21,943 bases of DNA from positions 1 to 21,943 of the forward strand of contig JAGVCW010000022.1 of NCBI GenBank assembly GCA_020059045.1, given 5' to 3'. Position numbers and translations under genes: made by a program. Positions 1,688 through 18,104 of this stretch are shown piece by piece. Source of the stretch: Minisyncoccota bacterium. GTDB taxonomy: Bacteria; Patescibacteriota; Minisyncoccia; Phycocordibacterales; Zambryskibacteraceae. The notes below the pieces were generated by a model. It did no database searches. It saw nothing but the letters and a program-made list of their open reading frames with translations, and had not been told where the DNA came from. Each line of letters begins with the position of its first letter. The first letter of the stretch is position 1.

Positions 1688-3298
1688 ATGTCTGACCGCA
1701 TAAGGAATTGGTTAGTGCGAGTTATCGACCGCTTGGAGAATCACTTGCGAAATCGTCGGATTAGGAACGCGGCACGAGGGCAGCCTACACAGTCGACTTG
1801 GTGGCCAGCAGGGCTAAGGAGAGACCCAGCGACAATAATGACAGCCCTACTTCTGGCAGTAGTTTCGGTAGTTGCAATTTTTCAGCTTAGCAAACTACCA
1901 TCTGTTATCAGTGGAATTTTCAAATCTGGTGAGGATGCCTGCTTGACTGCTGATCTTGCAAGATCTGCTGGAAGGGTGGACGCAATCGCCGAAGCCGCAT
2001 GTGCGGCACACCGCGAGCCGATAGAGTGGGCAGTATTGGGGCTTCGAGCTCTCGTTGTTATTGTAGTAATTATTATCCTCGTATTAGTGTGGAAATTTGT
2101 TCGTAGGCGATGGATGAGACCTACTGCAGCTCCTACTGCTACAGCAGGAGCTGCAGTAGCAACTCCAAGAGGAGCGGGAACATCAGGAATTTCATGGAAG
2201 TATGTTGGTGTACTAGCTCCTATTGCTGTTTTCTTCATCTTCAGTTGGGCACTGTACGCCTTTTGGGCTGAGTTCAGTGGTGAAGCTGGAAGAAGTTATT
2301 TCTGGAACGAATGGTTCTGGAGCACAAACTTCTGGCTACTGCTCATAATTGCACTAGCAGCATGGATCGGAGCGTTCTTCGTCAGCAATAAAGCTTTCAT
2401 TCCTTATGTTGTGGTGATCGTTATTGTAGCCCTAGCTACAACGTACAAAGACATCCGAGAAGGTCTCGCTGGCAAAGTGGTAGCAGGACCACTGCCGGGT
2501 GTAGTCGTCGCATCCGCGGTTGCTACTTTCCCGGAGAACCCGAGTGATAAGTGGAGAACTGCCGATCTTGATTCGGCTCGTACATATCTCGATTTTCCAC
2601 AGGACTCGATGTTTCTCGAGATCTTTGCGTGTGAGTCGAGCGGTATTCACTACACCGATTCTGCACGCACAGAGGTGTTACGAGGGAGGGTTGATAGCTC
2701 CGATGTGGGTATTGCTCAAAACAATGAGCGAATCCATAGAGATCTACTTGATTCCCTTGCAGCAAGTCCGGACTCAGCGGAATATTATGACATATACACC
2801 ATCCGGGGTAATGTCAATTTCGCTAAACACCTGCGATATCGCAAGATCCGCGCAGGAAGAACCGGTCTTCGGATTTACGAAGACTGGAATGCTTCTCGTC
2901 ACTGTTGGGAAAGACATGAGGGTAGCCGGTCGCGTACTGTCGAGCAACAGGTGGTAGAGTCTCCATTTGGCCCACCTCCATCACCGGATCCAATCAGATT
3001 CGTTGATAGGAAGCTTGTAATCCCAGCCGGAGACACAAGCTGGACAAACACGATAACTAGGCCAAGTATGGAGTATGAAGTCTATTGGAATACGGGAGGA
3101 CCATCATATATCGACCTCATTGCTCTCGTAAATGGGCGAGACACAGTAAGTCTGAATGCGAGCGTTGCATACAGGCCGATACGGAACTTCCGTTCGATAT
3201 CGTATAGGACAAGGGTACCTGTAGAGATCCCTGTTGAAATTTATGTCTGTATGCTCAGGCGTAACGAGGCACGGATCCTAGCACAATGTACTGATTAG
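1688..3298 (+). CDS. hypothetical polytopic membrane protein, about 5-6 TM helices, with an Ala/Thr-rich linker and a roughly 270-aa soluble C-terminal domain
   Basis: The ORF is 536 aa with a ribosome-binding site. Hydrophobic segments: TALLLAVVSVVAIF, LVVIVVIIILVLVW, VGVLAPIAVFFIFSWALYAFW, FWLLLIIALAAWIGAFFV and IPYVVVIVIVALATT. No recognisable catalytic motif. GC is elevated relative to most of the window. Confidence 0.6.
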   Translation: MSDRIRNWLVRVIDRLENHLRNRRIRNAARGQPTQSTWWPAGLRRDPATIMTALLLAVVSVVAIFQLSKLPSVISGIFKSGEDACLTADLARSAGRVDAIAEAACAAHREPIEWAVLGLRALVVIVVIIILVLVWKFVRRRWMRPTAAPTATAGAAVATPRGAGTSGISWKYVGVLAPIAVFFIFSWALYAFWAEFSGEAGRSYFWNEWFWSTNFWLLLIIALAAWIGAFFVSNKAFIPYVVVIVIVALATTYKDIREGLAGKVVAGPLPGVVVASAVATFPENPSDKWRTADLDSARTYLDFPQDSMFLEIFACESSGIHYTDSARTEVLRGRVDSSDVGIAQNNERIHRDLLDSLAASPDSAEYYDIYTIRGNVNFAKHLRYRKIRAGRTGLRIYEDWNASRHCWERHEGSRSRTVEQQVVESPFGPPPSPDPIRFVDRKLVIPAGDTSWTNTITRPSMEYEVYWNTGGPSYIDLIALVNGRDTVSLNASVAYRPIRNFRSISYRTRVPVEIPVEIYVCMLRRNEARILAQCTD

Positions 3299-3305
3299 TA
3301 TGAGT

Positions 3306-3345
3306 GGGCGTAGCTTGCGCAAGCAAGTTATGCCTTTTTTATTGT
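3306..3345 (+). terminator. probable terminator with a short GC palindrome followed by a T6 run
   Basis: GCTTGCGCAAGC palindrome followed by TGCCTTTTTTATT, lying between convergent genes. The stem is weak. Confidence 0.35.
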
Positions 3346-3369
3346 CAAAACAAAGGGTCCACTACTCAA

Positions 3370-4338
3370 TTAATATGAAATTTTATTAACCACTCTTCCC
3401 TCTTTATCAAATAAAGTTATTGTTTCTCTTTCGTTTGCCCACATCTCCCATGACTTATTTAGATAAACTCTCCACTCGGGTAGATAGAAATCTTTGTCTT
3501 CCGAGTGTAGAGCTACACAGGACTCATATGAATAGTGACTTGCAATGAAGGCTTTACACTGGCTTGAGAGCCCGCAAACACCGTCGACACATCCCCGCTC
3601 AATATTGTTTCCTATTCGAGTTGAATCCTTTTCCTTGGGCGTGCGACATGTTGCCATAGATCTGACAAACTTATAACAGTCATCATCCAGACTTTCTACT
3701 CCCACTTCGGCGGCCGGATACGGGCAACTAGTATACATGTATGGGTAGAATTCATAAGTGGGAAGATTTTCAAGATACCCACTGCACTTGTTTACTTTAA
3801 AACTTGTTACAACAAATGGATTCTTGTTCTGGACATCACCAGTTATGATGGCTGCTTTCTCCCCTTTACCAAGAATTATAGGGCCAAGAAAATTTGACCC
3901 TTTAGTAATAAACAATTTTGCAGCTTGAGGTATTACTGCAACATCAGATTGAAGTTTCACTTGGTTCCCACCTAGGTTCGTAAACTTATTTCCTTTGCCA
4001 TTTGAAAGAGACCAACCAGTTATATTTACTCCCTCTACTGGCACATCTTGCGCATATAAATATATGTATTCTCTGGAAGGCTGTATTTCATATGTATTGC
4101 CTGATTGTATAGTAACTTTTCCATACCAAGGAGAAGCGTTGCCCTCGGACAATGTTGTGTTCCCAATTTGGCTACTTGATCCACTGGACGAATAAACACT
4201 TGTAGATGTTGTTCCAATGAGAGGACCTCCCATACTTGGGATAAACTTGCCCCGGCCAAGAAGCATAAGAAATATCACTGCCACTATCCCTATGATAAAC
4301 AGTACGTCTTCCCCTTTTGAGTAATTTGCTTTAAACAT
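3370..4338 (-). CDS. hypothetical N-terminally anchored extracellular protein with a Ser-rich linker and a Cys-rich C-terminal domain, positioned directly downstream of the pilin-like array
   Basis: The ORF is 322 aa. N-terminal TM (LFIIGIVAVIFLMLL), then SSSGSSS linker. There are 9 Cys in the last ~130 aa (CSGY, CPYP, DDDCYKF, ATCRTP, GCVDGVCGLSSQCKAF, ESCVALH). A putative own promoter, TTGTAA-17-TATTCT, lies on the minus strand in 4339-4412. Confidence 0.6.
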   Translation of the reverse strand: MFKANYSKGEDVLFIIGIVAVIFLMLLGRGKFIPSMGGPLIGTTSTSVYSSSGSSSQIGNTTLSEGNASPWYGKVTIQSGNTYEIQPSREYIYLYAQDVPVEGVNITGWSLSNGKGNKFTNLGGNQVKLQSDVAVIPQAAKLFITKGSNFLGPIILGKGEKAAIITGDVQNKNPFVVTSFKVNKCSGYLENLPTYEFYPYMYTSCPYPAAEVGVESLDDDCYKFVRSMATCRTPKEKDSTRIGNNIERGCVDGVCGLSSQCKAFIASHYSYESCVALHSEDKDFYLPEWRVYLNKSWEMWANERETITLFDKEGRVVNKISY

Positions 4339-4411
4339 TAAAGTAATTGTAATTTAGAATACTTTAAAATATTGCTTCTTACAATTAGCTTATGACCTTG
4401 CATTTCTTAAC

Positions 4412-4443
4412 AAAAGACCCCGCCTAGGCGGGGTCTTTTGTTA
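4412..4443. terminator. bidirectional Rho-independent terminator
   Basis: AAAA-GACCCCGCC-tag-GGCGGGGTC-TTTTGTT is a 9-bp GC-rich stem flanked by an A-run and a T-run. It ends the minus-strand pilin operon. Confidence 0.8.
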
Positions 4444-4492
4444 ATCATCATTCGTTATTCCTTATTCTCTATTCTTTATATCTTATTCTTCT
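4444..4492 (-). repeat. heptad-periodic purine tract, (NNN)GAAT repeated about 5 times on the minus strand, between the stop codon and the terminator; repeat family copy 1
   Basis: On the plus strand, ATTC occurs at 4450, 4457, 4464 and 4471 with period 7, and again at 4485. The reverse complement, GAAGAATAAGATATAAAGAATAGAGAATAAGGA, matches 14291-14323 at 30 of 33 positions. Confidence 0.6.
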
Positions 4493-4759
4493 TCAAAACG
4501 GAAATCTACCTGAAATATTTACACCGATTGTGTCCATAACAATCCTTATGATTCCGTAGACTCCGAACATTATAAACATTCCAATAACACCCCATAGCAT
4601 GTTTTTCTGACCTTGCTCTCGGTTCTTAGCATCTTCTGTATTAGTAAGGAATTGGAATATCCCCCACAGAAATACTAGGAGTGCTATCGCAAACATAAGG
4701 AGAATGAGTGGGTTTAAGATAAACTGATTTATCTTACCCAAAAACGGAGCAATGGACAT
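4493..4759 (-). CDS. TrbC/VirB2-like pilin-family small membrane protein, paralog 6, lacking the signal peptide and ectodomain
   Basis: Two TM helices separated by a charged loop (FLWGIFQFLTNTEDAKNREQGQKNMLWGVIGMFIMFGVYGII) match the family core of the upstream paralogs. It lies 15 nt after paralog 5. Confidence 0.5.
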   Translation of the reverse strand: MSIAPFLGKINQFILNPLILLMFAIALLVFLWGIFQFLTNTEDAKNREQGQKNMLWGVIGMFIMFGVYGIIRIVMDTIGVNISGRFPF

Positions 4760-4774
4760 GAGAAATGACTACCT

Positions 4775-5122
4775 CTATATTGCTGGGGGCTGGATTATTC
4801 CGCCACCACCCGTACCTGTTTCTGTCTGAAGAAGCTGAACGATCCCCCATACTGAAACCATAATGAATATTGCAACTATTCCCCAAATCATGATTTTCTT
4901 TCCTTCTTCTCTTTTGTCTTCATTTCCTGCGGCAAGAACAAATTTCATTAAACCCCATAGGAAAAACAGGAATGCGAGGCCGATGACGACTGGTGTTGCC
5001 ATATTGATAAGACCCCTGATCTGACTGATAACGCTCTGGGTATAGTTAAAAGTTGGATTCCCTACAGCAAGCACAATTGCTGGAAGTAGGAAACTGGCGC
5101 CAAGAGCAATAAACTTTTTCAT
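4775..5122 (-). CDS. TrbC/VirB2-like pilin-family protein with signal peptide, short ectodomain and TM hairpin; paralog 5
   Basis: Signal peptide MKKFIALGASFLLPAIVLAVG. Core PVVIGLAFLFFLWGLMKFVLAAGNEDKREEGKKIMIWGIVAIFIMVSVWGIV. Gly-rich C-terminal tail. Own minus-strand promoter at 5180-5208. Confidence 0.65.
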   Translation of the reverse strand: MKKFIALGASFLLPAIVLAVGNPTFNYTQSVISQIRGLINMATPVVIGLAFLFFLWGLMKFVLAAGNEDKREEGKKIMIWGIVAIFIMVSVWGIVQLLQTETGTGGGGIIQPPAI

Positions 5123-5179
5123 TGTTTGATAAAATTAAATAATAAAATACGTTTTAGTTATACCTAGTGGTATAGGCTT

Positions 5180-5208
5180 ATAATACAAGGATTTAATGCA
5201 AAATTCAA
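5180..5208 (-). promoter_or_regulatory. internal sigma70-type promoter, TTGAAT-17-TATTAT on the minus strand, inside the pilin array
   Basis: Reverse complement of 5203-5208 is TTGAAT, and of 5180-5185 is TATTAT, with a 17-nt spacer. Located in the 117-nt gap between paralogs 4 and 5. Confidence 0.5.
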
Positions 5209-5239
5209 GGGAAGTGTGGATAAAAAAGTGAAAGACAGA

Positions 5240-5557
5240 TTACGGTCCAATGATATAAGTGCTAAGCCCAAACTCAAATCTAAGTAACCAGACTATCCCC
5301 CAAACAGATACCATTATAAAAAGTGCTATAACACCCCAAGTCATTAACCTCTTTCCTTCTGTTCTTTTCTCTTCGTTACCTGAATTTAAGATAAAGTTTG
5401 CTAGCCCCCATAGGAAAAATAAGAAGGCGAGGCCGATGACGACTGGAAAAGCTAAGTTTAATACATTTCTGAATTCTGTGATTACTCCCTGTATACCTTG
5501 AGCCGCAACAAAAACGGGTAGAAAGGATGTGAGAATTAGAAAAAATCTATAGATCAT
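5240..5557 (-). CDS. TrbC/VirB2-like pilin-family protein, paralog 4
   Basis: Signal peptide MIYRFFLILTSFLPVFVAAQG. Core PVVIGLAFLFFLWGLANFILNSGNEEKRTEGKRLMTWGVIALFIMVSVWGIV is near-identical to paralog 5. A roughly 45-nt stretch (about 5404-5447) is about 85-90% identical to the corresponding stretch of paralog 5 (about 4949-4992). Confidence 0.65.
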   Translation of the reverse strand: MIYRFFLILTSFLPVFVAAQGIQGVITEFRNVLNLAFPVVIGLAFLFFLWGLANFILNSGNEEKRTEGKRLMTWGVIALFIMVSVWGIVWLLRFEFGLSTYIIGP

Positions 5558-5562
5558 TTAAG

Positions 5563-6024
5563 TTATGAAGTTCGAAGAAATGGAAACGCCAAATTACCCC
5601 CAAAAAAATCACTAAAAAGAATACTTACAATTCCCCAAACTGATACCATTACAAAGAGTCCTATCGCCCCCCAGAACATAAGACTCTTGCCCGCACTTAC
5701 TTTCTTCTCATCTCCTGCTGCCAAAACAAATCTCATAAGTCCCCAGAGAAAGACGAAAAACGCTAATCCTATGACAACTGGTATAAGTGAATTAATTAGA
5801 CCCACGAGTAAGCAAACAAATTCTGTGAAGTTACCAGGTTGCGTGCCTGGAGCAGTATTCCCATATGAGGGACACACTGAAGAAGAGGCCGGAGATGGAG
5901 AAGTGTTAACGGGGATAGGAAAACCGGCAAAAGCTTGCACGGGTAGAGATAGAATAATAATTAATATTACAAAGCAAGCTACGTAACTCCTCACCAAATT
6001 TATTTTGAATCTACTCGTATACAT
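5563..6024 (-). CDS. TrbC/VirB2-like pilin-family protein with an extended Pro/Ser-rich ectodomain carrying a Cys pair; paralog 3
   Basis: Signal peptide, then SPSPASSSVCPSYGNTAPGTQPGNFTEFVC with two Cys, then core PVVIGLAFFVFLWGLMRFVLAAGDEKKVSAGKSLMFWGAIGLFVMVSVWGIV. AAGGA ribosome-binding site. Lies 5 nt from paralog 4. Confidence 0.65.
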   Translation of the reverse strand: MYTSRFKINLVRSYVACFVILIIILSLPVQAFAGFPIPVNTSPSPASSSVCPSYGNTAPGTQPGNFTEFVCLLVGLINSLIPVVIGLAFFVFLWGLMRFVLAAGDEKKVSAGKSLMFWGAIGLFVMVSVWGIVSILFSDFFGGNLAFPFLRTS

Positions 6025-6027
6025 ATT

Positions 6028-6420
6028 TTATGGTCCTTGAAGTTGGTTCACTGTTGCTTGTATAGCCAAAGCTATTGCCCATGAGCCTAGAAGTATAAGG
6101 GCTCCAATGACTGAGGAGAAAAACGCACTTTTCGCACTCTTAAGTTTAGTTTCATCTCCACGTGCAGTAACAAACAGAAACCCTGCATAAATAATAGCAA
6201 GTGTAACTATTACCCCTCCAATAGGAAGTATCACGTCATTAATAACAGCAACTATGAAGTCGTAGAGTGTACCAGGAGCATTTCGGAGAGGATTGGGAAT
6301 ACAGACACTACCTTGAGGACATGGCGCGGATCCACCTGTATTACCCGCAAACACAATTCCTGGAATATAAACTACCAAGATAATGAGAAGAGAGAGAAGC
6401 ATTGTAAAAAGTTTTTTCAT
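6028..6420 (-). CDS. TrbC/VirB2-like pilin-family protein, the more classical VirB2-like variant with a Cys pair; paralog 2
   Basis: Signal peptide MKKLFTMLLSLLIILVVYIPGIVFAG. The ectodomain holds CPQGSVC. TM hairpin: IVTLAIIYAGFLFVTARGDETKLKSAKSAFFSSVIGALILLGSWAIALAI. Lies 3 nt from paralog 3. Confidence 0.6.
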   Translation of the reverse strand: MKKLFTMLLSLLIILVVYIPGIVFAGNTGGSAPCPQGSVCIPNPLRNAPGTLYDFIVAVINDVILPIGGVIVTLAIIYAGFLFVTARGDETKLKSAKSAFFSSVIGALILLGSWAIALAIQATVNQLQGP

Positions 6421-6445
6421 AAATAATTAATTCTTGCTTTAATAC

Positions 6446-6850
6446 TTAACCAAAAAGTGTAAACGGTTGATCAAGGAGAGCAACTGCAATAAATTTCACA
6501 ATAAGCCACGCGGCAAGTATAAAGAAGAAACCAATCATAGTATTTGTAAATATTCCTTTTGCCCTCTTAATTTTATCATCTGCTCCCCCTGCTGTAACCA
6601 TGAGAAAACCAGCTACGATAAACGCTATTGCTGCGAGTGGTACAGAGTAAAGTATTATGATGTTCATAATATTTATACCCAATGTGATTAGTGAGCCAAA
6701 GGTACAGGGGTCATCAAACTTGTTTTTAGTAGTATTAAAATTTGTATTGCAAACTATTAAGTTCGTATCCACAGCGAGAGTTGTAAGTGGCACGAGAAAT
6801 ACTACAATAATCAAAAAGAAACTTAGAGAAAATGTTAGTGAAGATTTCAT
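6446..6850 (-). CDS. TrbC/VirB2-like pilin-family protein, paralog 1; its start overlaps the stop of the upstream solute-binding-protein gene
   Basis: Signal peptide, an ectodomain with two Cys (LIVCNTNF...DDPCTFG), and the hairpin AAIAFIVAGFLMVTAGGADDKIKRAKGIFTNTMIGFFFILAAWLIV. The ATG (6848-6850) overlaps the TAA (6850-6852) of the 6850-8139 gene as TAATG. Confidence 0.6.
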   Translation of the reverse strand: MKSSLTFSLSFFLIIVVFLVPLTTLAVDTNLIVCNTNFNTTKNKFDDPCTFGSLITLGINIMNIIILYSVPLAAIAFIVAGFLMVTAGGADDKIKRAKGIFTNTMIGFFFILAAWLIVKFIAVALLDQPFTLFG

Positions 6851-8139
6851 TATTTGAAGAGATTTTCAAGCTCTGCACCTGCTTGGTTAATGGCAACATC
6901 CATCCTAACTCTTCCTCCCGTCACAGACTCAACCAAACGCAAGAAAATTTGATCTGTTGCCACGTTATCTGGGTCTAACCACCCCTGCGACCATAGTGCT
7001 CCATCGTAAAGTACGGGCCGCACTGCATCCGTTTGGCGCTCTGACAACAAGTCCCGACGTGCTGGAGCTATACCTAGCGATTCTGCCATAACTTTTACAA
7101 TGTCTTTACTTATTAATTCAGAAATAAAAGCGAAAGCTCCTGCGATATTTTGAGAATTTTTGACAATTGCAAGTCCTGTCATGTTGCCATACGTAATCTT
7201 TTTTATACCAGTACGTGACTGCGGGAAATTTGCAATATCAAAATTAAGATTTGGGTTCTTGATCTTTAAATACGAATACCTTGAGCCAAAATCGAAGTAG
7301 ACCGCTAGATCTCCAGCAAGAAATGCGGTTTCCGAAAGTGGAAGAGAGCGATTCCATGAGTAGAAGGGTTTAGCGGGGTTAGAAAATTCTGTATAGAAGG
7401 AAAGTGCTGCACTTGTGGGTAAAACCGGTGTGTTAAAGGATTTTCGAAGCACACCCGTCGCTACTCCATTTTCTATAGCAACTATTGGATTACCAGCTTG
7501 CATTATAAGAGCCGCCAGAATTTCCTTAGAATTTGAAATATTTTTATATTCACCAAGCGCGACCGTTGAACGAGTTACATTAAAAGCACTGTCTTTAGTA
7601 GTAAGAGCACCTGACAATGCGAAATATTCATCCCAAAATGTTGGCGGTGAAGCAAGCCCCGCGTCAGAAAAAATGTTTTTATTCCAATACATTACAAGAG
7701 GATCAATAGAGACTGGTAGTGCCAGTGCCCCAGCAGGTGTAAGGAAAATACTTCCCTCCTCAACAAACGTATCTCTGTAAGTTCTCTCTGAAATACTCTC
7801 AAAAGGAATGGTAAGTAGCTTGTTACGATTTTTGTAAACATTGTCATGAGATATGAAAATGACATCAGGTCCCACACCTTCAGCAAGGGCCTCTACAAAA
7901 TCACTATCAAAATTTTCTTCAGATTTCTCAACATAAGTCACTACTAAAGTCTGATCCTTAGATAGCTGTGATTGCCCCCAAATTTGAGAAAAAACAGACT
8001 GCGGCATGGTACCCCAGACAGTTATACTGCCACCTTCCTCCCCTCGCCCCCTACCCCCAGCTGCAAACAAAATGACACCGATAATGATAAAGGCTACAAA
8101 GACTCCAATAAATATGAGCTGAAATCTGCTTGTGGTCAT
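6850..8139 (-). CDS. extracellular solute-binding protein of ABC-type family 1 (MalE-like fold), TM-anchored, with no adjacent permease or ATPase
   Basis: N-terminal TM anchor. GPDVIFISHD resembles MalE GPDIIFWAHD. ALPVSIDPLVMYWNKNIF...PPTFWDEYFAL resembles [31 protein letters not shown]. The C-terminal DQIFLRLVESVTGG is typical of family-1 solute-binding proteins. Confidence 0.7.
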   Translation of the reverse strand: MTTSRFQLIFIGVFVAFIIIGVILFAAGGRGRGEEGGSITVWGTMPQSVFSQIWGQSQLSKDQTLVVTYVEKSEENFDSDFVEALAEGVGPDVIFISHDNVYKNRNKLLTIPFESISERTYRDTFVEEGSIFLTPAGALALPVSIDPLVMYWNKNIFSDAGLASPPTFWDEYFALSGALTTKDSAFNVTRSTVALGEYKNISNSKEILAALIMQAGNPIVAIENGVATGVLRKSFNTPVLPTSAALSFYTEFSNPAKPFYSWNRSLPLSETAFLAGDLAVYFDFGSRYSYLKIKNPNLNFDIANFPQSRTGIKKITYGNMTGLAIVKNSQNIAGAFAFISELISKDIVKVMAESLGIAPARRDLLSERQTDAVRPVLYDGALWSQGWLDPDNVATDQIFLRLVESVTGGRVRMDVAINQAGAELENLFK

Positions 8140-8214
8140 CCTTTAGATGTTATAAATCATTGATTAGATTATAACCCACAGAAACCATTACCCCTGTGTA
8201 CAGAAAAACAAAAT

Positions 8215-8769
8215 TCACCCTTTGCGAAATACAACACCATAATGGTGAGCCCCTGCAGAAATTTTACGATCATAGACAAATCCTTTACTTTCAAATAAAG
8301 CTTTAGCGCTATCTTCGTTAAACACTTGGTCCGTATGTGGCCCCAGACCTTCAAACGAATCTGTCCAATCAACTACAAGTAATTGTCCCCCTTGTTTAAG
8401 AATTCTTGCGGCCTCATTTGCAAGAGAATCCCTGTCCTTAGCTTGGAAAAGTAGATTTGAAACTACAACCGAATCCACAAAGCCATCTCTAATGCGACTA
8501 CCACCCATTTTTTCCACATCACCCCAAATTATCTCTATATTAGAAAAACCTAAACTCCTTGCTTCTTTTTTAAGTTTTGTAAGAAGCTCATTTTGTATAT
8601 CGACAGCGTACACCTTGCCTTTATCGCCAACAGCTCTAGCAATCGCAATAGAATAGTGCCCCGAACCAGAACCAAAATCAGCCACCTGCGAACCAAGCTT
8701 CAAAGAAAGCTGTTCAATGTTTTTATTTGGATCAGAAAACATTATCCATATTATACACGAGCCAAACAC
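8215..8769 (-). CDS. class I SAM-dependent methyltransferase
   Basis: Motif I VADFGSGSGHYSIAIA, acidic-loop VYAVDIQ, and motif IV-like LLVVDW. The start in the track is GTG at 8769. An internal ATG at 8742 (MFSDPNK...) is an alternative start. Confidence 0.7.
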   Translation of the reverse strand: MFGSCIIWIMFSDPNKNIEQLSLKLGSQVADFGSGSGHYSIAIARAVGDKGKVYAVDIQNELLTKLKKEARSLGFSNIEIIWGDVEKMGGSRIRDGFVDSVVVSNLLFQAKDRDSLANEAARILKQGGQLLVVDWTDSFEGLGPHTDQVFNEDSAKALFESKGFVYDRKISAGAHHYGVVFRKG

Positions 8770-8807
8770 ATATCCTTATACAAACTTGGACATTCTACAC
8801 CCAAGTA

Positions 8808-11273
8808 CTACAAGCAAATTAGAGAGGCAAGAGAGTCCCCATCTCGGAGCTTCATAATACGCACTCCTTGAGTCTGGCGGCCAAGTTCAGCTATTTCATC
8901 TATTCCTGTGCGGATAACTTGCCCCTTTTTAGAAATTGCTACTACTTCTTCAATATCACCAGTTACTATTGCAGAAGATATAATATTTCCAGTTTTCTCC
9001 GTAACTTTACCAGTCTTAATACCAGAACCTCCTCTATTTTGAATTTTATACTCATTTATGTCAGTTTTCTTGCCGTAACCATTTTCACTTATTACAAGTA
9101 GCTTTGCGCCTGTTGAATCTTTTTTTACAACTTGTGCACCAACGACGCTATCCTCTTTAGCAAGTTTCATAACCCAAACTCCCGCGGCACTCCTTCCCAT
9201 AACTCTTGCGTCAGATTCCTTAAACCTTATTGATTGTCCTTTTTTCGAAACAACCGCAACTGTATCTCCTTTTTCTACCAGAGAAGCAGAAACCAAAAGA
9301 TCGTCCGCATCAAGCTTTATAGCAATTATTCCGCTTGAGCGAACGTCTGAGAAGTTTTCAGCATCAACTTTTTTTCCCACACCATTTTTTGTCACTAGAA
9401 CTAGTGATAAACCTTCTTTACCTTTCTTGTCTTTTGATACAGAAAGAATTGATGTGATTTTCTCTTCACTACCAAGAGATATAAAATTCATTACAGATTT
9501 ACCACGAGTGGCCCGTTTCCCTTCTGGAATGTCATACATTTTTATTTGGTAAACCTTTCCCTTGTCTGTAAAAAATAGTAGATCACTATGGGTTGATGCT
9601 GTCAGAAATTGGGTTACAAAATCCTCTTCTTTGGTATTCAAATCGACAACTCCAACTCCTCCTCTTTTTTGCTTCTTGTATTCATCTGGGTTTGTCCGCT
9701 TTATGTACCCACCACCAGTAAGCACCAAGGCGTTTTCTTCATCAGCAATAAGATCTTCTGTTGAGAATGATTTGGTTGCACCTTTGATGACTTTTGTTCT
9801 ACGATCATCACCATATTTTTCTTGAATTTCTGCGGTTTCTTTCTTGATAATTACAAGAATCTTCTTTGGACTCGCGAGTATCCCTTTTAATTCTGCAATT
9901 ACAATCTGAACTTCAACCAATTCGTCTTCAATCTTTTTCCTTTCTAAGCCTGCAAGTCTAGAAAGTTTCATCTCAAGGATAGCGACAGCTTGTCTATCTG
10001 TAAATTTAAATTCCTTCATCAACCCTGCTTTTGCTTCATCGACAGTCTTCGAAGCCCGAATGAGTTTGATGATGGCATCAATGTGATCGAGAGCCTTCTT
10101 AAGCCCAAGAAGAATGTGTTCACGATCCTCGGCTTTAGCCAATTCAAATTCTGTTCTACGCTTAATAACAATTTTCCTGTGTTTGATGAATTCCTCTAGA
10201 ATATTTTTGACCGAGAGAGTTTGTGGCACACCATCTACTAGAGCTACCAGGTTCAAGTGGAAGGTCTCCTCAAGTTGAGTATGTTTGTATAAAAAGTTTA
10301 AAACCTTCTGAGGTTGGCTGCCATTTTTAAGCTCGATTACTATGCGTATATCCTTTGTCGACTCATCTCTTAATCCCTTTATTCCTTCTAATTTCTTTTC
10401 ACGTACGAGTTCAGCAATTTTTTCTATTAAAGTCGCTTTGTTTACTCTGTATGGAATTGCAGAAATGATGATTTGGAAACTTCCAAGTTTGGTTTCAACA
10501 ATTTCTGCTACTCCACGAGTTACTATTCCCCCACGACCAGTTGCATAGGCATGATGAATATCTTTTTCATTAAAAATAAGTCCACCAGTTGGAAAATCTG
10601 GCCCCTTGATAAATTGAAGTATATCTTCGTTCGCTGCATCTGGGTTATCTACCAAGTATGCCACTGCATCAGATAATTCCCGCAGATTGTGTGGAGGAAT
10701 GTTTGTGGCCATACCCACAGCAATTCCAAGTGTTCCGTTAAGCAAAATGTTTGGTGCCGCGGCTGGCAAAACCGATGGTTCTCTTTTGCTTCCATCGTAG
10801 TTCGGCCGAAAGTCTACTGTATCCTTGTCTATATCTCTCAAGAGCTCGCTTGAAAGTTTACTCATCTTCGCTTCGGTGTAGCGGTATGCTGCAGCATTGT
10901 CACCATCAATGGAACCGAAATTTCCTTGTCCAAGAACCAGTGGATAACGAGTTGAGAAATCTTGCGCCATCTTGACCATAGAGTCATACACTGATGCGTC
11001 ACCATGTGGGTGAAAGTTACCCAAAACATCTCCCACAACTGTTGCCGACTTACGGAACTTTGCAGAAGCCACAAGCCCCATGTTGTTCATCGAATAGAGT
11101 ATACGGCGGTGCACAGGCTTCAATCCATCACGTACGTCAGGCAATGCTCTATCTGTAATAACAGACATGGCATAGTCAATAAACGACTCTTTCATTTCAG
11201 TGACAATGTTGCGCGCGACAACATTCACTCTTTCCTCGTTATTTTCTTTTTTTACTTTATCATTCTTTGACAT
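8808..11273 (-). CDS. gyrA: DNA gyrase subunit A
   Basis: [43 protein letters not shown] and the catalytic Tyr region are present. The C-terminal beta-pinwheel carries a GyrA-box-like QKRGGVG. Length 821 aa. Confidence 0.92.
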
Positions 11274-16274: not shown

Positions 16275-16889
16275 ATGGATGATAACAGACCTACCGTAGA
16301 TTCTACAAATACTGAACTTAAAGTAGAAACTAAAACTAAACAAAAAAGTTTTTGGAGAGAACTCGTCGAATTCGCATTTATTGCGCTTATCATTGTCATC
16401 CCGGTTAGAACATACATAGCTCAACCATTTGTGGTGAACGGTGCATCGATGGACCCAACATTTTTAAGCGGAGAGTACCTCATTGTTGATCAACTAACTT
16501 ACCACTTCGAGCAACCCGCGCGTGGATCAATACTCATATTCAAGTATCCGAAAGATCCATCTAAGTATTTCATTAAAAGGGTTATTGGGCTTCCAGGGGA
16601 AACAGTAAGTATTGTAAATGGTGTGGTTAGCATAATAAACAATGACAACAAAGAAGGGTTTGAACTAAACGAACCTTACATTAAGTTTGACAAGAAAGAT
16701 GACAGCCGCATTACTTTAGACGACGAAGAGTATTTTGTAATGGGAGATAACAGACTTGGAAGCGCAGACTCAAGACTGTGGGGACCAATGCCAGAGGAAG
16801 ATATTGTGGGCAGACCACTTGTGCGTCTCTTCCCTCTCGGGAAAATTGGCTGGATGCCAGGAGATGAGAGAGCATTATTTAAAAACTAA
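16275..16889 (+). CDS. lepB: signal peptidase I (S26 family)
   Basis: N-terminal TM, the catalytic Ser box VNGASMDPTF, and the Lys box region GDNRLGSADSRLWGPMP. Confidence 0.88.
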   Translation: MDDNRPTVDSTNTELKVETKTKQKSFWRELVEFAFIALIIVIPVRTYIAQPFVVNGASMDPTFLSGEYLIVDQLTYHFEQPARGSILIFKYPKDPSKYFIKRVIGLPGETVSIVNGVVSIINNDNKEGFELNEPYIKFDKKDDSRITLDDEEYFVMGDNRLGSADSRLWGPMPEEDIVGRPLVRLFPLGKIGWMPGDERALFKN

Positions 16890-18104
16890 ATGAAAGCAGA
16901 AAAAACAAACAAAAAAAAGCAGGCAGGTAAAGTTGCTGCGTGGGAAGCAAAAGATATGACTAAAGAAATGATTACTGCTTCGTATTTTGGATTTATTCCC
17001 ACAAAAACTCCAGATGTATCGAAGGACGACCACTCGAAACTCCGATCACTTAAAGATCCGTATTACGAAACAGACCGAATACATGCAGAATATCCGTTCT
17101 CATTTGATGCATTAGAAAAAATTGCTTTGTTCCGATCATATCTTGATTGGGGGATTGCCTCTCTTCCACACCCGGTTCTAATGTCATACAGAAAGCCAGT
17201 TCATGGGACAGAACACAAGAAGGGTACAGACTCTATCCTAGGGCTTGAAGCGTTCGGGCTTTCTGGTAGCGCCGCTGAAGCATTGCTTCTCAGGTCTGCG
17301 CTTTCAATATTAGAGGACTTGGGCTTCAAAAATCTCTGCATAGAGATAAATAGCATTGGGGACAAGGAGTCAGTTGCTGATCTCGAGCGTGCTACCGGAA
17401 CATTTGTTCGCAAAAATATTAACGCCATGAGTGCTGAAGAGCGAAGACTCGCAAAAAAAGATGTCTTTGATCTACTTCGCACCCCAAGCGAGAGATCTGA
17501 TACTGTTCCGGAAGTTCCGAAATCAATAAGTTTTCTGTCGGAGAACTCACGAATTCATTTCAAGGAAGTGCTTGAGTATATTGAGAGCTTCAATACTCCT
17601 TATACTATCAATTCTTCTCTTATCGGCTCCCCTTGCTTCTGCTCCGAAACAACTTTTAAGATTATGGAAGACGATGGAAAGAACAAGCAAACTCTTGCCC
17701 TAGGATACAGATACTCAAGACTTTCAAAAAAGATTGGTTTCAAAAAAGAACTGCCAGCAATGGGGGTAACTATTTCCCTCGACAAGAAAGATTCTGCAAA
17801 GCTCCCTAAGAAACAGTTTAAACCAAAATTTTATCTTATACAGCTCGGACTCGGTGCTAAAATGCGTGCCCTAGAAGCCATAGAAGTTCTAAGACACGCG
17901 AAGATTCCTGTGGCATTCTCGCTTGGCAAAGACAAGTTCCAGAGTCAACTTGGAAGTGCCGAAAACATGAAGGTTCCTTATGTGCTTATAATTGGACAGA
18001 AGGAGGCAATAGAGAATTCTATTGTAATAAGAGATATGAATACTCGAGTGCAAGAGACCGTAGAAATTAAAGAGCTACCGGACTACATAAGGAAGTTGAA
18101 GTAA
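16890..18104 (+). CDS. histidyl-tRNA synthetase-like class II aaRS-fold protein with an anticodon-binding domain; the N-terminal catalytic motifs appear degenerate
   Basis: IEINSIGD resembles E. coli HisS [49 protein letters not shown] resembles [51 protein letters not shown] resembles [20 protein letters not shown]...[11 protein letters not shown] resembles GGRYDGL...PAVGFAMGLER. The C-terminal [21 protein letters not shown] is an anticodon-binding fold. RGxxD, LRPEGT and GRYRQF are not recognisable. Coupled to lepB (TAA then ATG). Confidence 0.55.
   Translation: [404 protein letters not shown]

What the first reader, a model, noticed from the sequence alone, without database searches (positions are those of the whole stretch)
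6446..8139. The solute-binding protein is translationally coupled to the first pilin by a TAATG overlap
The TAA stop of the 429-aa solute-binding-protein gene (6850-6852, minus strand) shares its last A with the ATG (6848-6850) of pilin paralog 1. The following pilin genes are separated by 25, 3 and 5 nt. This is operon-level coupling of a periplasmic-binding-fold protein to pilin subunits, so the pairing is functional and not accidental adjacency.
Basis: seen in the sequence. Interest (0 to 1): 0.55.

Follow-up and report, generated by a model that had tools for sequence, protein, structure and literature searches.

The report
Binding-protein gene heads VirB2-like pilin operon
In this tiny-genome (Patescibacteria) bacterium, a gene for a sugar-transporter-type binding protein runs directly into a row of six conjugation-type (VirB2-like) pilin genes; over a hundred related genomes keep this pairing and one fuses it into a single protein, which suggests the binding protein works with the pilus apparatus and not with an ordinary transporter.

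Summary
On the minus strand the TAA stop (6852-6850) of a 429-aa membrane-anchored MalE-fold binding protein (SBP) shares base 6850 with the ATG of the next gene, and the following gaps are 25, 3 and 5 nt. The downstream genes are VirB2/TrbC-type type IV SECRETION pilins (PF18895), not type IV pilus pilins, and there are six, not four.

The overlap alone proves little. The exact 1-nt overlap is not conserved, and most genes here lack Shine-Dalgarno sites. An unrelated pair (signal peptidase/HisRS) also abuts with a 0-nt gap.

Comparative data do support a real link:
- In 124 of 125 related loci with enough downstream sequence, the SBP is followed by pilins.
- The P1-type pilin is always first, and SBP|P1 is the tightest junction (median 3 nt).
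- The unit methyltransferase-SBP-pilins persists where the gyrA flank is lost.
- No ABC permease lies within 6-10 kb in any locus.
- One MAG encodes an in-frame SBP::P1 fusion with a degenerate signal peptide.

Pilin arrays are known in Patescibacteria, but I found no report of an SBP partner. Verdict: conserved operon with a probable physical partnership; translational coupling is plausible but untested. New variant of a known kind.

The parts
8215..8769 (-). Class I SAM-dependent methyltransferase. The likely true start is the ATG at 8742, giving MFSDP...; specificity is unknown. It is the first gene of the conserved unit in most relatives.
   Evidence: Pfam Methyltransf_31/25/11. Only generic NCBIfam hits, all below cut-off. 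Present directly upstream of the SBP in 49/51 metagenome loci and most genome loci. It overlaps the SBP start in 28%. It is retained with SBP-pilins where gyrA is absent.
6850..8139 (-). 429-aa binding protein: an N-terminal TM anchor (residues about 5-27), a variable linker, then a MalE-like type II periplasmic-binding fold.
   Evidence: PF01547/PF13416, E about 4e-15. AF2 pLDDT 85.6. Foldseek top hits are sugar SBPs 4qsd, 4r9g and MBP, TM 0.66-0.72 at 16-19% identity. Best PDB sequence hit is 4r9f, E = 4e-14. 1708 representatives at 50% clustering have E <= 1e-30. F6, F14, G21 and F25 of the anchor are at least 95% conserved in 79 species.
6848..6852 (-). TAATG stop/start overlap between SBP and pilin P1.
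   Evidence: Read directly from the sequence. Orthologous junctions have a median gap of 3 nt, and 20% overlap.
6446..6850 (-). Pilin P1 (134 aa): Sec signal peptide, a two-Cys N-terminal segment and a VirB2-like helical hairpin. It is always the first pilin after the SBP.
   Evidence: PF18895, 34.0 bits against a cut-off of 26.6. P1-type is at position 1 in 63/63 arrays. It is fused to the SBP in L086/P0262.
6028..6420 (-). Pilin P2 (130 aa).
   Evidence: PF18895 23.4 bits and TrbC 19.7 bits, both below cut-off. P2-type is at position 2 in 64/68 arrays.
5563..6024 (-). Pilin P3 (153 aa), a member of the P3/P4/P5 subgroup.
   Evidence: PF18895 32.7 bits. 55-57% identical to P4 and P5.
5240..5557 (-). 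Pilin P4 (105 aa).
   Evidence: PF18895 46 bits.
5180..5208 (-). Promoter-like site (TTGAAT-17-TATTAT) inside the 117-nt P4|P5 spacer. It is a possible internal promoter for P5-P6.
   Evidence: This is a consensus match only. A spacer of similar size lies at the same place in L001 and L004. Mid-array gaps have a median of 29 nt, IQR 7-100.
4775..5122 (-). Pilin P5 (115 aa), the best match to the family model.
   Evidence: PF18895 50 bits. Weak NCBIfam match to the Mbov_0395 ICE pilin-like protein, below cut-off.
4493..4759 (-). Pilin P6 (88 aa, no obvious long signal peptide). It is always the last gene of the array.
   Evidence: PF18895 29.9 bits. P6-type is last in 62/65 arrays.

Best explanation
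The SBP gene belongs to a conserved Paceibacteria (Parcubacteria-type Patescibacteria) module: SAM-methyltransferase, membrane-anchored MalE-fold binding protein, P1, P2, a variable number of P3/4/5-type pilins, then P6. It is transcribed at least from the SBP through P4. In most relatives transcription probably starts upstream of the methyltransferase.

The binding protein is most likely an extracytoplasmic partner of the VirB2-like pilin assembly, and specifically of P1. It is tethered in the same membrane and probably still binds a conserved ligand, likely a carbohydrate. It probably does not act as the receptor of a neighbouring ABC importer.

The near-zero SBP|P1 spacing keeps the two products co-expressed. 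Termination-reinitiation at TAATG is a plausible way of doing this in this genome.

Shown: gene order, junction tightness, positional orthology, fold, lack of local permeases, and one natural fusion. Inferred: physical interaction, ligand class, and translational coupling.
For: 1. Overlap and gaps were read directly. No terminator-like site lies on the minus strand between 8235 and 3901.
2. Pilins follow the SBP in 68/68 genome loci (41-58% SBP identity) and 56/57 metagenome loci (32-60% identity to the P0262 query used for that scan).
3. SBP|P1 is the tightest junction: median 3 nt, 84% within -20..+12 nt. GyrA|MTase has a median of 190 nt.
4. The architecture is fixed. P1-type is always first (63/63), P2-type second (64/68) and P6-type last (62/65). 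These are old, specialised paralogues, not recent duplicates.
5. The block moves as a unit. 10/51 metagenome loci lack gyrA within 3.5 kb upstream, and five inspected ones have unrelated upstream genes, yet all keep MTase-SBP-pilins. One lineage keeps only SBP plus P1 (L162).
6. Rosetta-stone fusion: P0262/L086 is a 586-aa in-frame SBP::P1 protein in the same context. Its nearest relative (L087) has separate genes 4 nt apart, with a normal P1 signal peptide. In the fusion that peptide is shortened and loses its hydrophobic core (MNAAAVGNAAAAIDG), which is what the membrane topology of a fused protein requires. No alternative frame restores a signal peptide.
7. No EAA-loop permease ORF was found in any of the roughly 165 loci, with 6-10 kb flanks (for the first set).
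8. The TM anchor has one conserved face (F6, F14, G21, F25 at >=95%), which is unusual for a passive anchor.
9. After controlling for GyrA distance, SBP divergence tracks P1 and P2 (partial r 0.42-0.43) more than MTase (0.24) or LactB3 (0.15).
Against: - In most loci the whole stretch LactB3-h113-gyrA-MTase-SBP-pilins is syntenic, and GyrA is 65-82% identical. The sampled genomes are therefore fairly close, and part of the conservation is inherited gene order.
- The fusion is seen in one MAG only. None was found among 78 further metagenome loci.
- The permease test is a local regular-expression scan, not a whole-genome search.
- Mirror-tree correlations can arise simply because all these proteins are surface-exposed.
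- One locus (L142) has tsf, not a pilin, after the SBP.
- No expression or interaction data exist.
Confidence: 0.6

Rival explanations
1. Inherited synteny without a functional link. The SBP is the receptor of an ABC sugar importer encoded elsewhere. The pilins serve a T4SS encoded elsewhere. The tight junction only reflects genome compaction.
For: - The entire upstream block (LactB3, gyrA, MTase) is also conserved.
- Unrelated genes in the window abut with a 0-nt gap (SPase/HisRS).
- MTase/SBP overlap is as frequent as SBP/P1 overlap.
- The SBP has a full MalE-like fold, and many aromatic and polar residues are >=95% conserved, as expected of a working sugar receptor.
- Sources annotate it as a multiple-sugar transport SBP.
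Against: - CUT1-family SBP genes normally sit beside their permease genes (general knowledge), and none is present in any locus.
- Pairing survives loss of the gyrA flank.
- One lineage keeps just SBP plus P1.
- The in-frame SBP::P1 fusion has a degraded signal peptide.
- SBP|P1 is the tightest of all junctions.
Confidence: 0.25
2. The six small two-helix proteins do not build a pilus. Together with the SBP they form a membrane complex, either a binding-protein-dependent channel or a sensor. In this reading 'T4SS pilin' is only a fold label.
For: - No VirB4, VirB6 or VirD4 gene was recognised in the window.
- The gene order 'SBP first, then membrane proteins' mimics ABC, TRAP and TTT importer operons (general knowledge).
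- The paralogue positions are fixed and ancient.
- The SBP anchor has a conserved helix face.
Against: - Five of six proteins pass Pfam's PF18895 threshold.
- Similar six-gene arrays in Saccharibacteria lie inside an essential T4SS cluster (PMC10633639).
- According to PMC12102498, VirB4 is widespread in Patescibacteria, and in Paceibacteria, the best-represented class, virB4 tends to lie near dnaA/dnaN, i.e. elsewhere in the genome.
- There is no precedent for VirB2-like proteins as importer subunits.
Confidence: 0.1
3. Accidental adjacency or overlap peculiar to this contig, or a mis-called P1 start.
For: - JGI's gene call starts P1 19 codons downstream (115 aa), which would remove the overlap.
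- The exact 1-nt overlap is seen in only 4 of 77 junctions.
Against: - Orthologues start with the same MK... signal peptide right at the SBP stop.
- The 115-aa version would lack a signal peptide.
- Adjacency is conserved in 124/125 loci.
Confidence: 0.03

Closest known systems
VirB2-like pilin arrays of Patescibacteria (Southlakia epibionticum SEML1_0014-0019; survey of 441 arrays in PMC12102498)
   Same: - Tandem array of divergent PF18895 pilins. There are six here and six in S. epibionticum.
- Within-array identity here is 24-57% by BLASTP, against a reported mean of 25% and maximum of 54%.
- Both are chromosomal and occur in a monoderm.
   Different: - Here the array is not next to VirB4, VirB6 or PrgI. 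It is headed by a MalE-fold binding protein and a methyltransferase.
- The S. epibionticum cluster contains no SBP.
- The survey paper does not contain the words 'solute' or 'substrate-binding'.
- The paralogue order is fixed across genomes, which argues against the antigenic-variation idea raised in that paper.
CUT1-family ABC sugar-binding proteins (E. coli MalE; CpMnBP1, PDB 4R9F/4R9G; Atu4361, PDB 4QSD)
   Same: Same two-lobe type II binding fold, PF01547/PF13416 membership and extracytoplasmic location.
   Different: - Only 16-19% identity to the structural matches.
- No NCBIfam model reaches its cut-off.
- No adjacent permease or ATPase genes were found in about 165 loci.
- The TM anchor is conserved.
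- The operon partners are pilins.
Sulfolobus bindosome: sugar-binding proteins with pilin-type (class III) signal peptides, assembled by the Bas system (PMC3047682)
   Same: It is a precedent for sugar-binding proteins being organised at the cell surface by pilin-related machinery.
   Different: - That system uses type IV pilin-like signal peptides, a PibD peptidase and a T4P-type ATPase.
- Here the SBP N-terminus (MSKFQLIL...) lacks the Gly/Ala at -1 and the +5 Glu of prepilins.
- The partners here are VirB2-type pilins, not type IV pilins.
- This is an analogy only.
PrgZ/TraC pheromone-binding OppA-like SBPs encoded on enterococcal conjugative plasmids (own knowledge, not checked here)
   Same: An SBP-fold protein is encoded together with a Gram-positive-type T4SS and acts as an extracellular ligand receptor for it.
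   Different: - PrgZ belongs to SBP family 5 and hands peptide to the host Opp permease for regulation.
- It is not linked to pilins, which those systems lack.
Translationally coupled overlapping gene pairs (ATGA/TAATG junctions) in bacterial operons (general knowledge)
   Same: The stop and start share a base. The downstream gene has no Shine-Dalgarno site.
   Different: - Most genes in this window lack a Shine-Dalgarno site, so reinitiation is not needed to explain P1 translation.
- Orthologues usually have a 1-9 nt spacer, not an overlap.

Membership tests
ABC-transporter solute-binding protein, family 1 (PF01547/PF13416, CUT1-type) | Type II periplasmic-binding fold recognised by the family HMMs | tested here: met
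   Pfam E = 4e-15, 56-57 bits against cut-offs of 26-27. AF2 pLDDT 85.6, and Foldseek matches sugar SBPs and MBP with probability 1.0.
ABC-transporter solute-binding protein, family 1 (PF01547/PF13416, CUT1-type) | Encoded with, or demonstrably serving, MalF/MalG-type permeases and an ABC ATPase | tested here: not met
   No EAA-loop ORF was found in any locus, with flanks up to 10 kb. Two unrelated ABC-ATPase-like ORFs were found. This was a local regex test only; whole genomes could not be scanned.
ABC-transporter solute-binding protein, family 1 (PF01547/PF13416, CUT1-type) | Binds a small-molecule ligand in the inter-lobe cleft | not testable with these tools
   56 positions are >=95% conserved, many of them aromatic or Asn/Asp. 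This is compatible with sugar binding but is not proof.
VirB2/TrbC-type T4SS pilin (PF18895/PF04956) | HMM match above the gathering score | tested here: met
   P1 34.0, P3 32.7, P4 46.0, P5 50.0 and P6 29.9 bits against a cut-off of 26.6. P2 scores 23.4, below it.
VirB2/TrbC-type T4SS pilin (PF18895/PF04956) | Signal peptide followed by a two-helix hydrophobic hairpin with a short basic loop | tested here: met
   Seen in the sequences. The AF2 model of the fused P1 shows helices 505-539 and 543-578 at pLDDT 75-81.
VirB2/TrbC-type T4SS pilin (PF18895/PF04956) | Encoded with T4SS machinery (VirB4, VirB6 and others) | tested here: not met
   The ORFs scanned against Pfam (most of those of 90 aa or more) gave no T4SS ATPase or VirB6 hit. 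ORFs beyond 18,100 were not scanned. The literature places virB4 near dnaA in Paceibacteria. The rest of this genome is unavailable.
VirB2/TrbC-type T4SS pilin (PF18895/PF04956) | Polymerises into an extracellular pilus | not testable with these tools
   No pilus has yet been shown for any patescibacterial VirB2 homologue in the papers read.
Patescibacterial VirB2 pilin array | 2-11 tandem, sequence-divergent VirB2-like genes | tested here: met
   Six genes on one strand with pairwise identity of 24-57%. The definition comes from PMC12102498.
Translationally coupled gene pair | Overlapping or abutting stop and start codons | tested here: met
   TAATG at 6852-6848.
Translationally coupled gene pair | Downstream translation depends on upstream translation | not testable with these tools
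   The lack of a Shine-Dalgarno site is uninformative, because most genes in the window lack one.
Archaeal bindosome-type SBP (class III signal peptide) | Prepilin-like signal peptide with a peptidase site | tested here: not met
   The N-terminus consensus MSKFQLILTGVF has Lys at -1 and no +5 Glu.

The most novel reading that the evidence does not exclude
The MalE-fold protein is an integral, P1-associated subunit of the patescibacterial VirB2 apparatus: a ligand-capturing head at the base or tip of the filament. It would bind host-cell glycans or host-derived nutrients and couple recognition to transport. The orphan T4SS of these epibionts would then be a binding-protein-dependent uptake or attachment device, not an exporter.
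Probability: 0.15. Interest if true: 0.85.

Novelty: new variant of a known kind. Interest (0 to 1): 0.58.

Why it matters
[quoted passage not shown] One idea under discussion is that it imports material from the host.

A binding protein is the hallmark component of import systems. In a large group of Paceibacteria-type genomes it is genetically welded to the first pilin of the array. The family has 1708 sequence clusters, and in one case the two proteins are fused. This gives a concrete, purifiable handle: find its ligand and its contacts.

There is also a practical point. These proteins are routinely annotated as 'multiple sugar transport system substrate-binding protein'. Such labels can be read in metabolic reconstructions as evidence of sugar import, which may be wrong for this family.

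Tried and rejected
1. P0116 (557 aa) looked like a possible SBP-pilin fusion. It is an internal duplication of the SBP.
2. I considered the absence of a Shine-Dalgarno site before P1 as evidence of coupling. I rejected this because gyrA, S1, pth, SPase, HisRS and others also lack one.
3. I considered a prepilin-like (class III) signal on the SBP because F6 and Q7 are conserved. I rejected it because there is no Gly/Ala at -1 and no Glu at +5.
4. A search for P1 homologues, meant to find more fusions, returned only the query itself. This is a limit of the word index with short divergent proteins. The same happened for the fusion's C-terminus, which gave one hit, P0270.
5. A metagenome scan seeded with the fusion found no further in-frame fusion among 78 loci. 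The apparent matches to query residues 1-583 are adjacent genes in different frames.
6. The AF2 model of the fusion gave a confident pilin hairpin and a more confident anchor helix.
7. h536 looked like a VirB1-like lytic transglycosylase from its 'CESSG...GIAQNN' motif. There is no Pfam support even at E <= 10.
8. Rfam and tRNA scans of the window found nothing.
9. Literature searches for an SBP-pilin link in CPR/Parcubacteria found no paper.
Full report
**The observation**

The minus strand reads ...TTCAAATAATGAAATCT.... TAA at 6852-6850 ends a 429-codon ORF (6850..8139). The ATG at 6850-6848 opens a 134-codon ORF (6446..6850).

The long start of the second gene is the right one. Orthologues begin with the same MK... 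signal peptide within a few bases of the upstream stop. JGI's shorter 115-aa call would remove the signal peptide.

**What the genes are**

The 429-aa protein matches SBP_bac_1 and SBP_bac_8 (E about 4e-15). Its predicted structure has pLDDT 85.6. The model shows an N-terminal helix (residues 5-27), a disordered linker, and a two-lobe fold. The closest solved structures are sugar-binding proteins: Atu4361, CpMnBP1 and maltose-binding protein, with TM 0.66-0.72 at 16-19% identity. The best PDB sequence hit is 4r9f, E = 4e-14.

The downstream genes are not type IV pilus pilins. They match PF18895, the VirB2/TrbC-like pilin of type IV secretion systems. There are six of them: 6446-6850, 6028-6420, 5563-6024, 5240-5557, 4775-5122 and 4493-4759. 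Five score above Pfam's threshold.

Upstream lie a small SAM methyltransferase (8215-8769) and gyrA (8808-11273). All homologues of the binding protein come from Patescibacteria of the Parcubacteria/Paceibacteria type.

**Is the overlap meaningful by itself?**

No, for four reasons:
- In the same window signal peptidase and HisRS, which are unrelated, abut with a 0-nt gap.
- Most genes here lack a Shine-Dalgarno sequence, including gyrA, S1, pth and HisRS. The lack of one before P1 therefore says nothing about reinitiation.
- Among 77 orthologous junctions (74 after removing duplicate loci), the exact 1-nt overlap occurs four times and a 4-nt ATGA overlap nine times. Most have 1-9 nt spacers.
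- Promoter-like matches in 3000-9000 are no more frequent than in shuffled sequence. No terminator-like site lies on the minus strand between 8235 and 3901.

Co-transcription is therefore likely but not shown.

**Comparative evidence: gene order**

A scan of one genome per species found at least 581 species with a relative. I analysed the best 80 (41-58% identity). I built a pilin profile from the window's six paralogues.

- Every one of 68 loci with at least 1.2 kb downstream has pilin genes directly after the binding-protein gene on the same strand.
- There are four to eight pilins per array, most often six.

A second scan of metagenome contigs was seeded with a divergent relative.
- It gave 56 of 57 loci with pilins after the SBP.
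- The exceptions are L142, where tsf follows, and L162, where only a P1-type pilin follows.
- In one further locus (L051) a hicA/hicB-like cassette has been inserted between the two genes.

**Comparative evidence: array architecture and junctions**

The array has a fixed architecture:
- The P1 type is at position 1 in 63/63 arrays.
- The P2 type is at position 2 in 64/68.
- The P6 type is last in 62/65.
- The P3/4/5 type, whose members are about 55% identical to each other, varies in copy number.

Median junction gaps across the block:

| Junction | Median gap (nt) | Notes |
|---|---|---|
| SBP\|P1 | 3 | IQR 1-8; 84% within -20..+12; 20% overlap |
| P2\|P3 | 5 | |
| MTase\|SBP | 10 | 28% overlap |
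| P1\|P2 | 11.5 | |
| mid-array | 29 | IQR 7-100 |
| gyrA\|MTase | 190 | |

SBP|P1 is the tightest junction of the whole block.

**A caveat, and how far it goes**

In most loci the whole stretch LactB3-h113-gyrA-MTase-SBP-pilins is syntenic. GyrA is 65-82% identical across the first set. Part of the conservation is therefore inherited gene order within one fairly compact clade.

Against a purely historical explanation:
- 10 of 51 metagenome loci have no gyrA within 3.5 kb upstream. The five inspected have unrelated genes further upstream. All still keep methyltransferase-SBP-pilins.
- The region downstream of the array varies freely.
- Insertions are seen between gyrA and the methyltransferase but, apart from L051, never between the SBP and P1.

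**The fusion**

A search of 1.84 billion representative proteins found 1708 clusters with E <= 1e-30. One hit was oversized: P0262, 586 aa.

- Its first 433 residues are the binding protein. Its last 150 or so align with the window's P1 (E = 9e-9), including both cysteines and both hydrophobic helices.
- It lies in the usual context and is followed by P2-type and further pilins (L086).
- Its closest relative (L087) has separate genes, with TAA, 4 nt, then ATG. That P1 has a normal signal peptide, MNTIKKIAISASALAILLGSASIAPILA.
- In the fusion this segment is shortened to MNAAAVGNAAAAIDG and has lost its basic and hydrophobic parts. No other frame encodes a signal peptide.

That change is what the topology of a fused protein requires: anchor, ectodomain outside, pilin N-terminus outside, then the hairpin. 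It argues for a real evolutionary fusion and against a sequencing slip. It remains a single MAG.

The AF2 model of the fusion shows a disordered linker (residues 440-504) and a confident hairpin (505-539 and 543-578).

**Further hints**

- No ORF with an ABC-permease EAA loop occurs in any locus. Sugar-binding proteins of this family are normally encoded next to their permeases (general knowledge).
- The membrane anchor has four positions conserved at >=95% over 79 species (F6, F14, G21, F25). Their spacing places them on roughly one helix face. This suggests a specific intramembrane contact.
- With GyrA distance controlled, SBP divergence correlates more with P1 and P2 (0.42, 0.43) than with the methyltransferase (0.24) or LactB3 (0.15). 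This is weak evidence, since shared surface exposure could produce it.

**Most likely mechanism**

The binding protein and the pilins are made from one transcript. In most relatives it starts before the methyltransferase. In this window there is a 75-nt spacer with a TATAAT-like box before the SBP gene. A possible second promoter lies in the conserved spacer before the last two pilins (5180-5208).

The two products are inserted into the same membrane and act together. The binding protein would be a ligand-binding, probably glycan-binding, partner of P1. I put this at 0.6.

Translational reinitiation at TAATG is a reasonable way to keep the two in step in this genome. It is neither conserved in form nor tested.

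**Rivals**

- Inherited synteny with an ABC importer encoded elsewhere: 0.25.
- A non-pilus membrane complex: 0.1.
- Chance adjacency or a mis-called start: 0.03.

**Comparison with what is known**

Arrays of two to eleven divergent VirB2-like pilin genes have been described in Patescibacteria. In Southlakia epibionticum a six-gene array is essential and lies inside the T4SS cluster (PMC12102498, PMC10633639, PMC12857230). That cluster has no binding protein. The survey paper does not mention one. My literature searches found no report of such a pairing.

The nearest functional analogies are the Sulfolobus bindosome (PMC3047682) and the plasmid-encoded pheromone-binding proteins of enterococci (own knowledge). 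Neither is homologous in its pilin part.

I therefore rate this as a new variant of a known kind.

Noticed in passing
window 8215-8769 (-) and orthologues in L001-L169: A small class I SAM methyltransferase (MFSDP...) is almost always directly upstream of the binding-protein gene. It overlaps the SBP start in 28% of loci and stays with SBP-pilins when gyrA is lost. It may belong to the module. Its substrate is unknown.
   Followed up: partly
window 1688-3298 (+): A 536-aa membrane protein convergent with the pilin array. Its C-terminal half has 'FACESSG...DVGIAQNN', reminiscent of lytic-transglycosylase motifs, but there is no Pfam hit even at E <= 10. GC here is 0.47-0.50 against 0.37-0.41 elsewhere. 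It is syntenic with the Band_7 gene (321-1562) in about a dozen loci.
   Followed up: partly
window 3370-4338 (-): A 322-aa secreted, Cys-rich protein with a weak lamin-tail-domain match follows pilin P6 on the same strand after 154 nt. It is present in only a few relatives (L007, L014; inverted in L010, L017), so it is a variable add-on.
   Followed up: partly
window, upstream of pth (16118), h113 (11693), LactB3 (12352), SPase (16275): Most genes lack a Shine-Dalgarno sequence. Several have a TATAAT-like box only 0-12 nt before the ATG, which suggests leaderless or very short-leader mRNAs in this organism.
   Followed up: no
L051, between SBP stop and first pilin (745 nt): A hicB/hicA-like toxin-antitoxin pair is inserted exactly at the SBP|P1 junction. 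It is the only insertion seen at this junction in about 125 loci.
   Followed up: partly
L162 7282-7740: One high-GC lineage keeps only a single P1-type pilin after the binding protein, followed by unrelated genes. This suggests that SBP plus P1 is the minimal pair.
   Followed up: partly
P0116 (557 aa, ENA contig): A binding-protein homologue with an internal tandem duplication of about 125 residues (the region around residues 125-250). It may be an assembly artefact or a real duplication.
   Followed up: no
window 16275-18104 (+) and L001 1-658: The signal peptidase I and HisRS genes abut (0-1 nt) both in the window and in a relative 50% identical in the SBP. This is a conserved tight junction between functionally unrelated genes, and a useful control against over-reading overlaps.
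   Followed up: partly
S. epibionticum SEML1_0634 (Wang et al. 2023, supplementary table): A family-5 peptide-type solute-binding protein is listed as essential and Patescibacteria-enriched. It sits next to secG and a holin-family gene, not next to permeases. This is another possibly orphan essential SBP in a patescibacterium.
   Followed up: no
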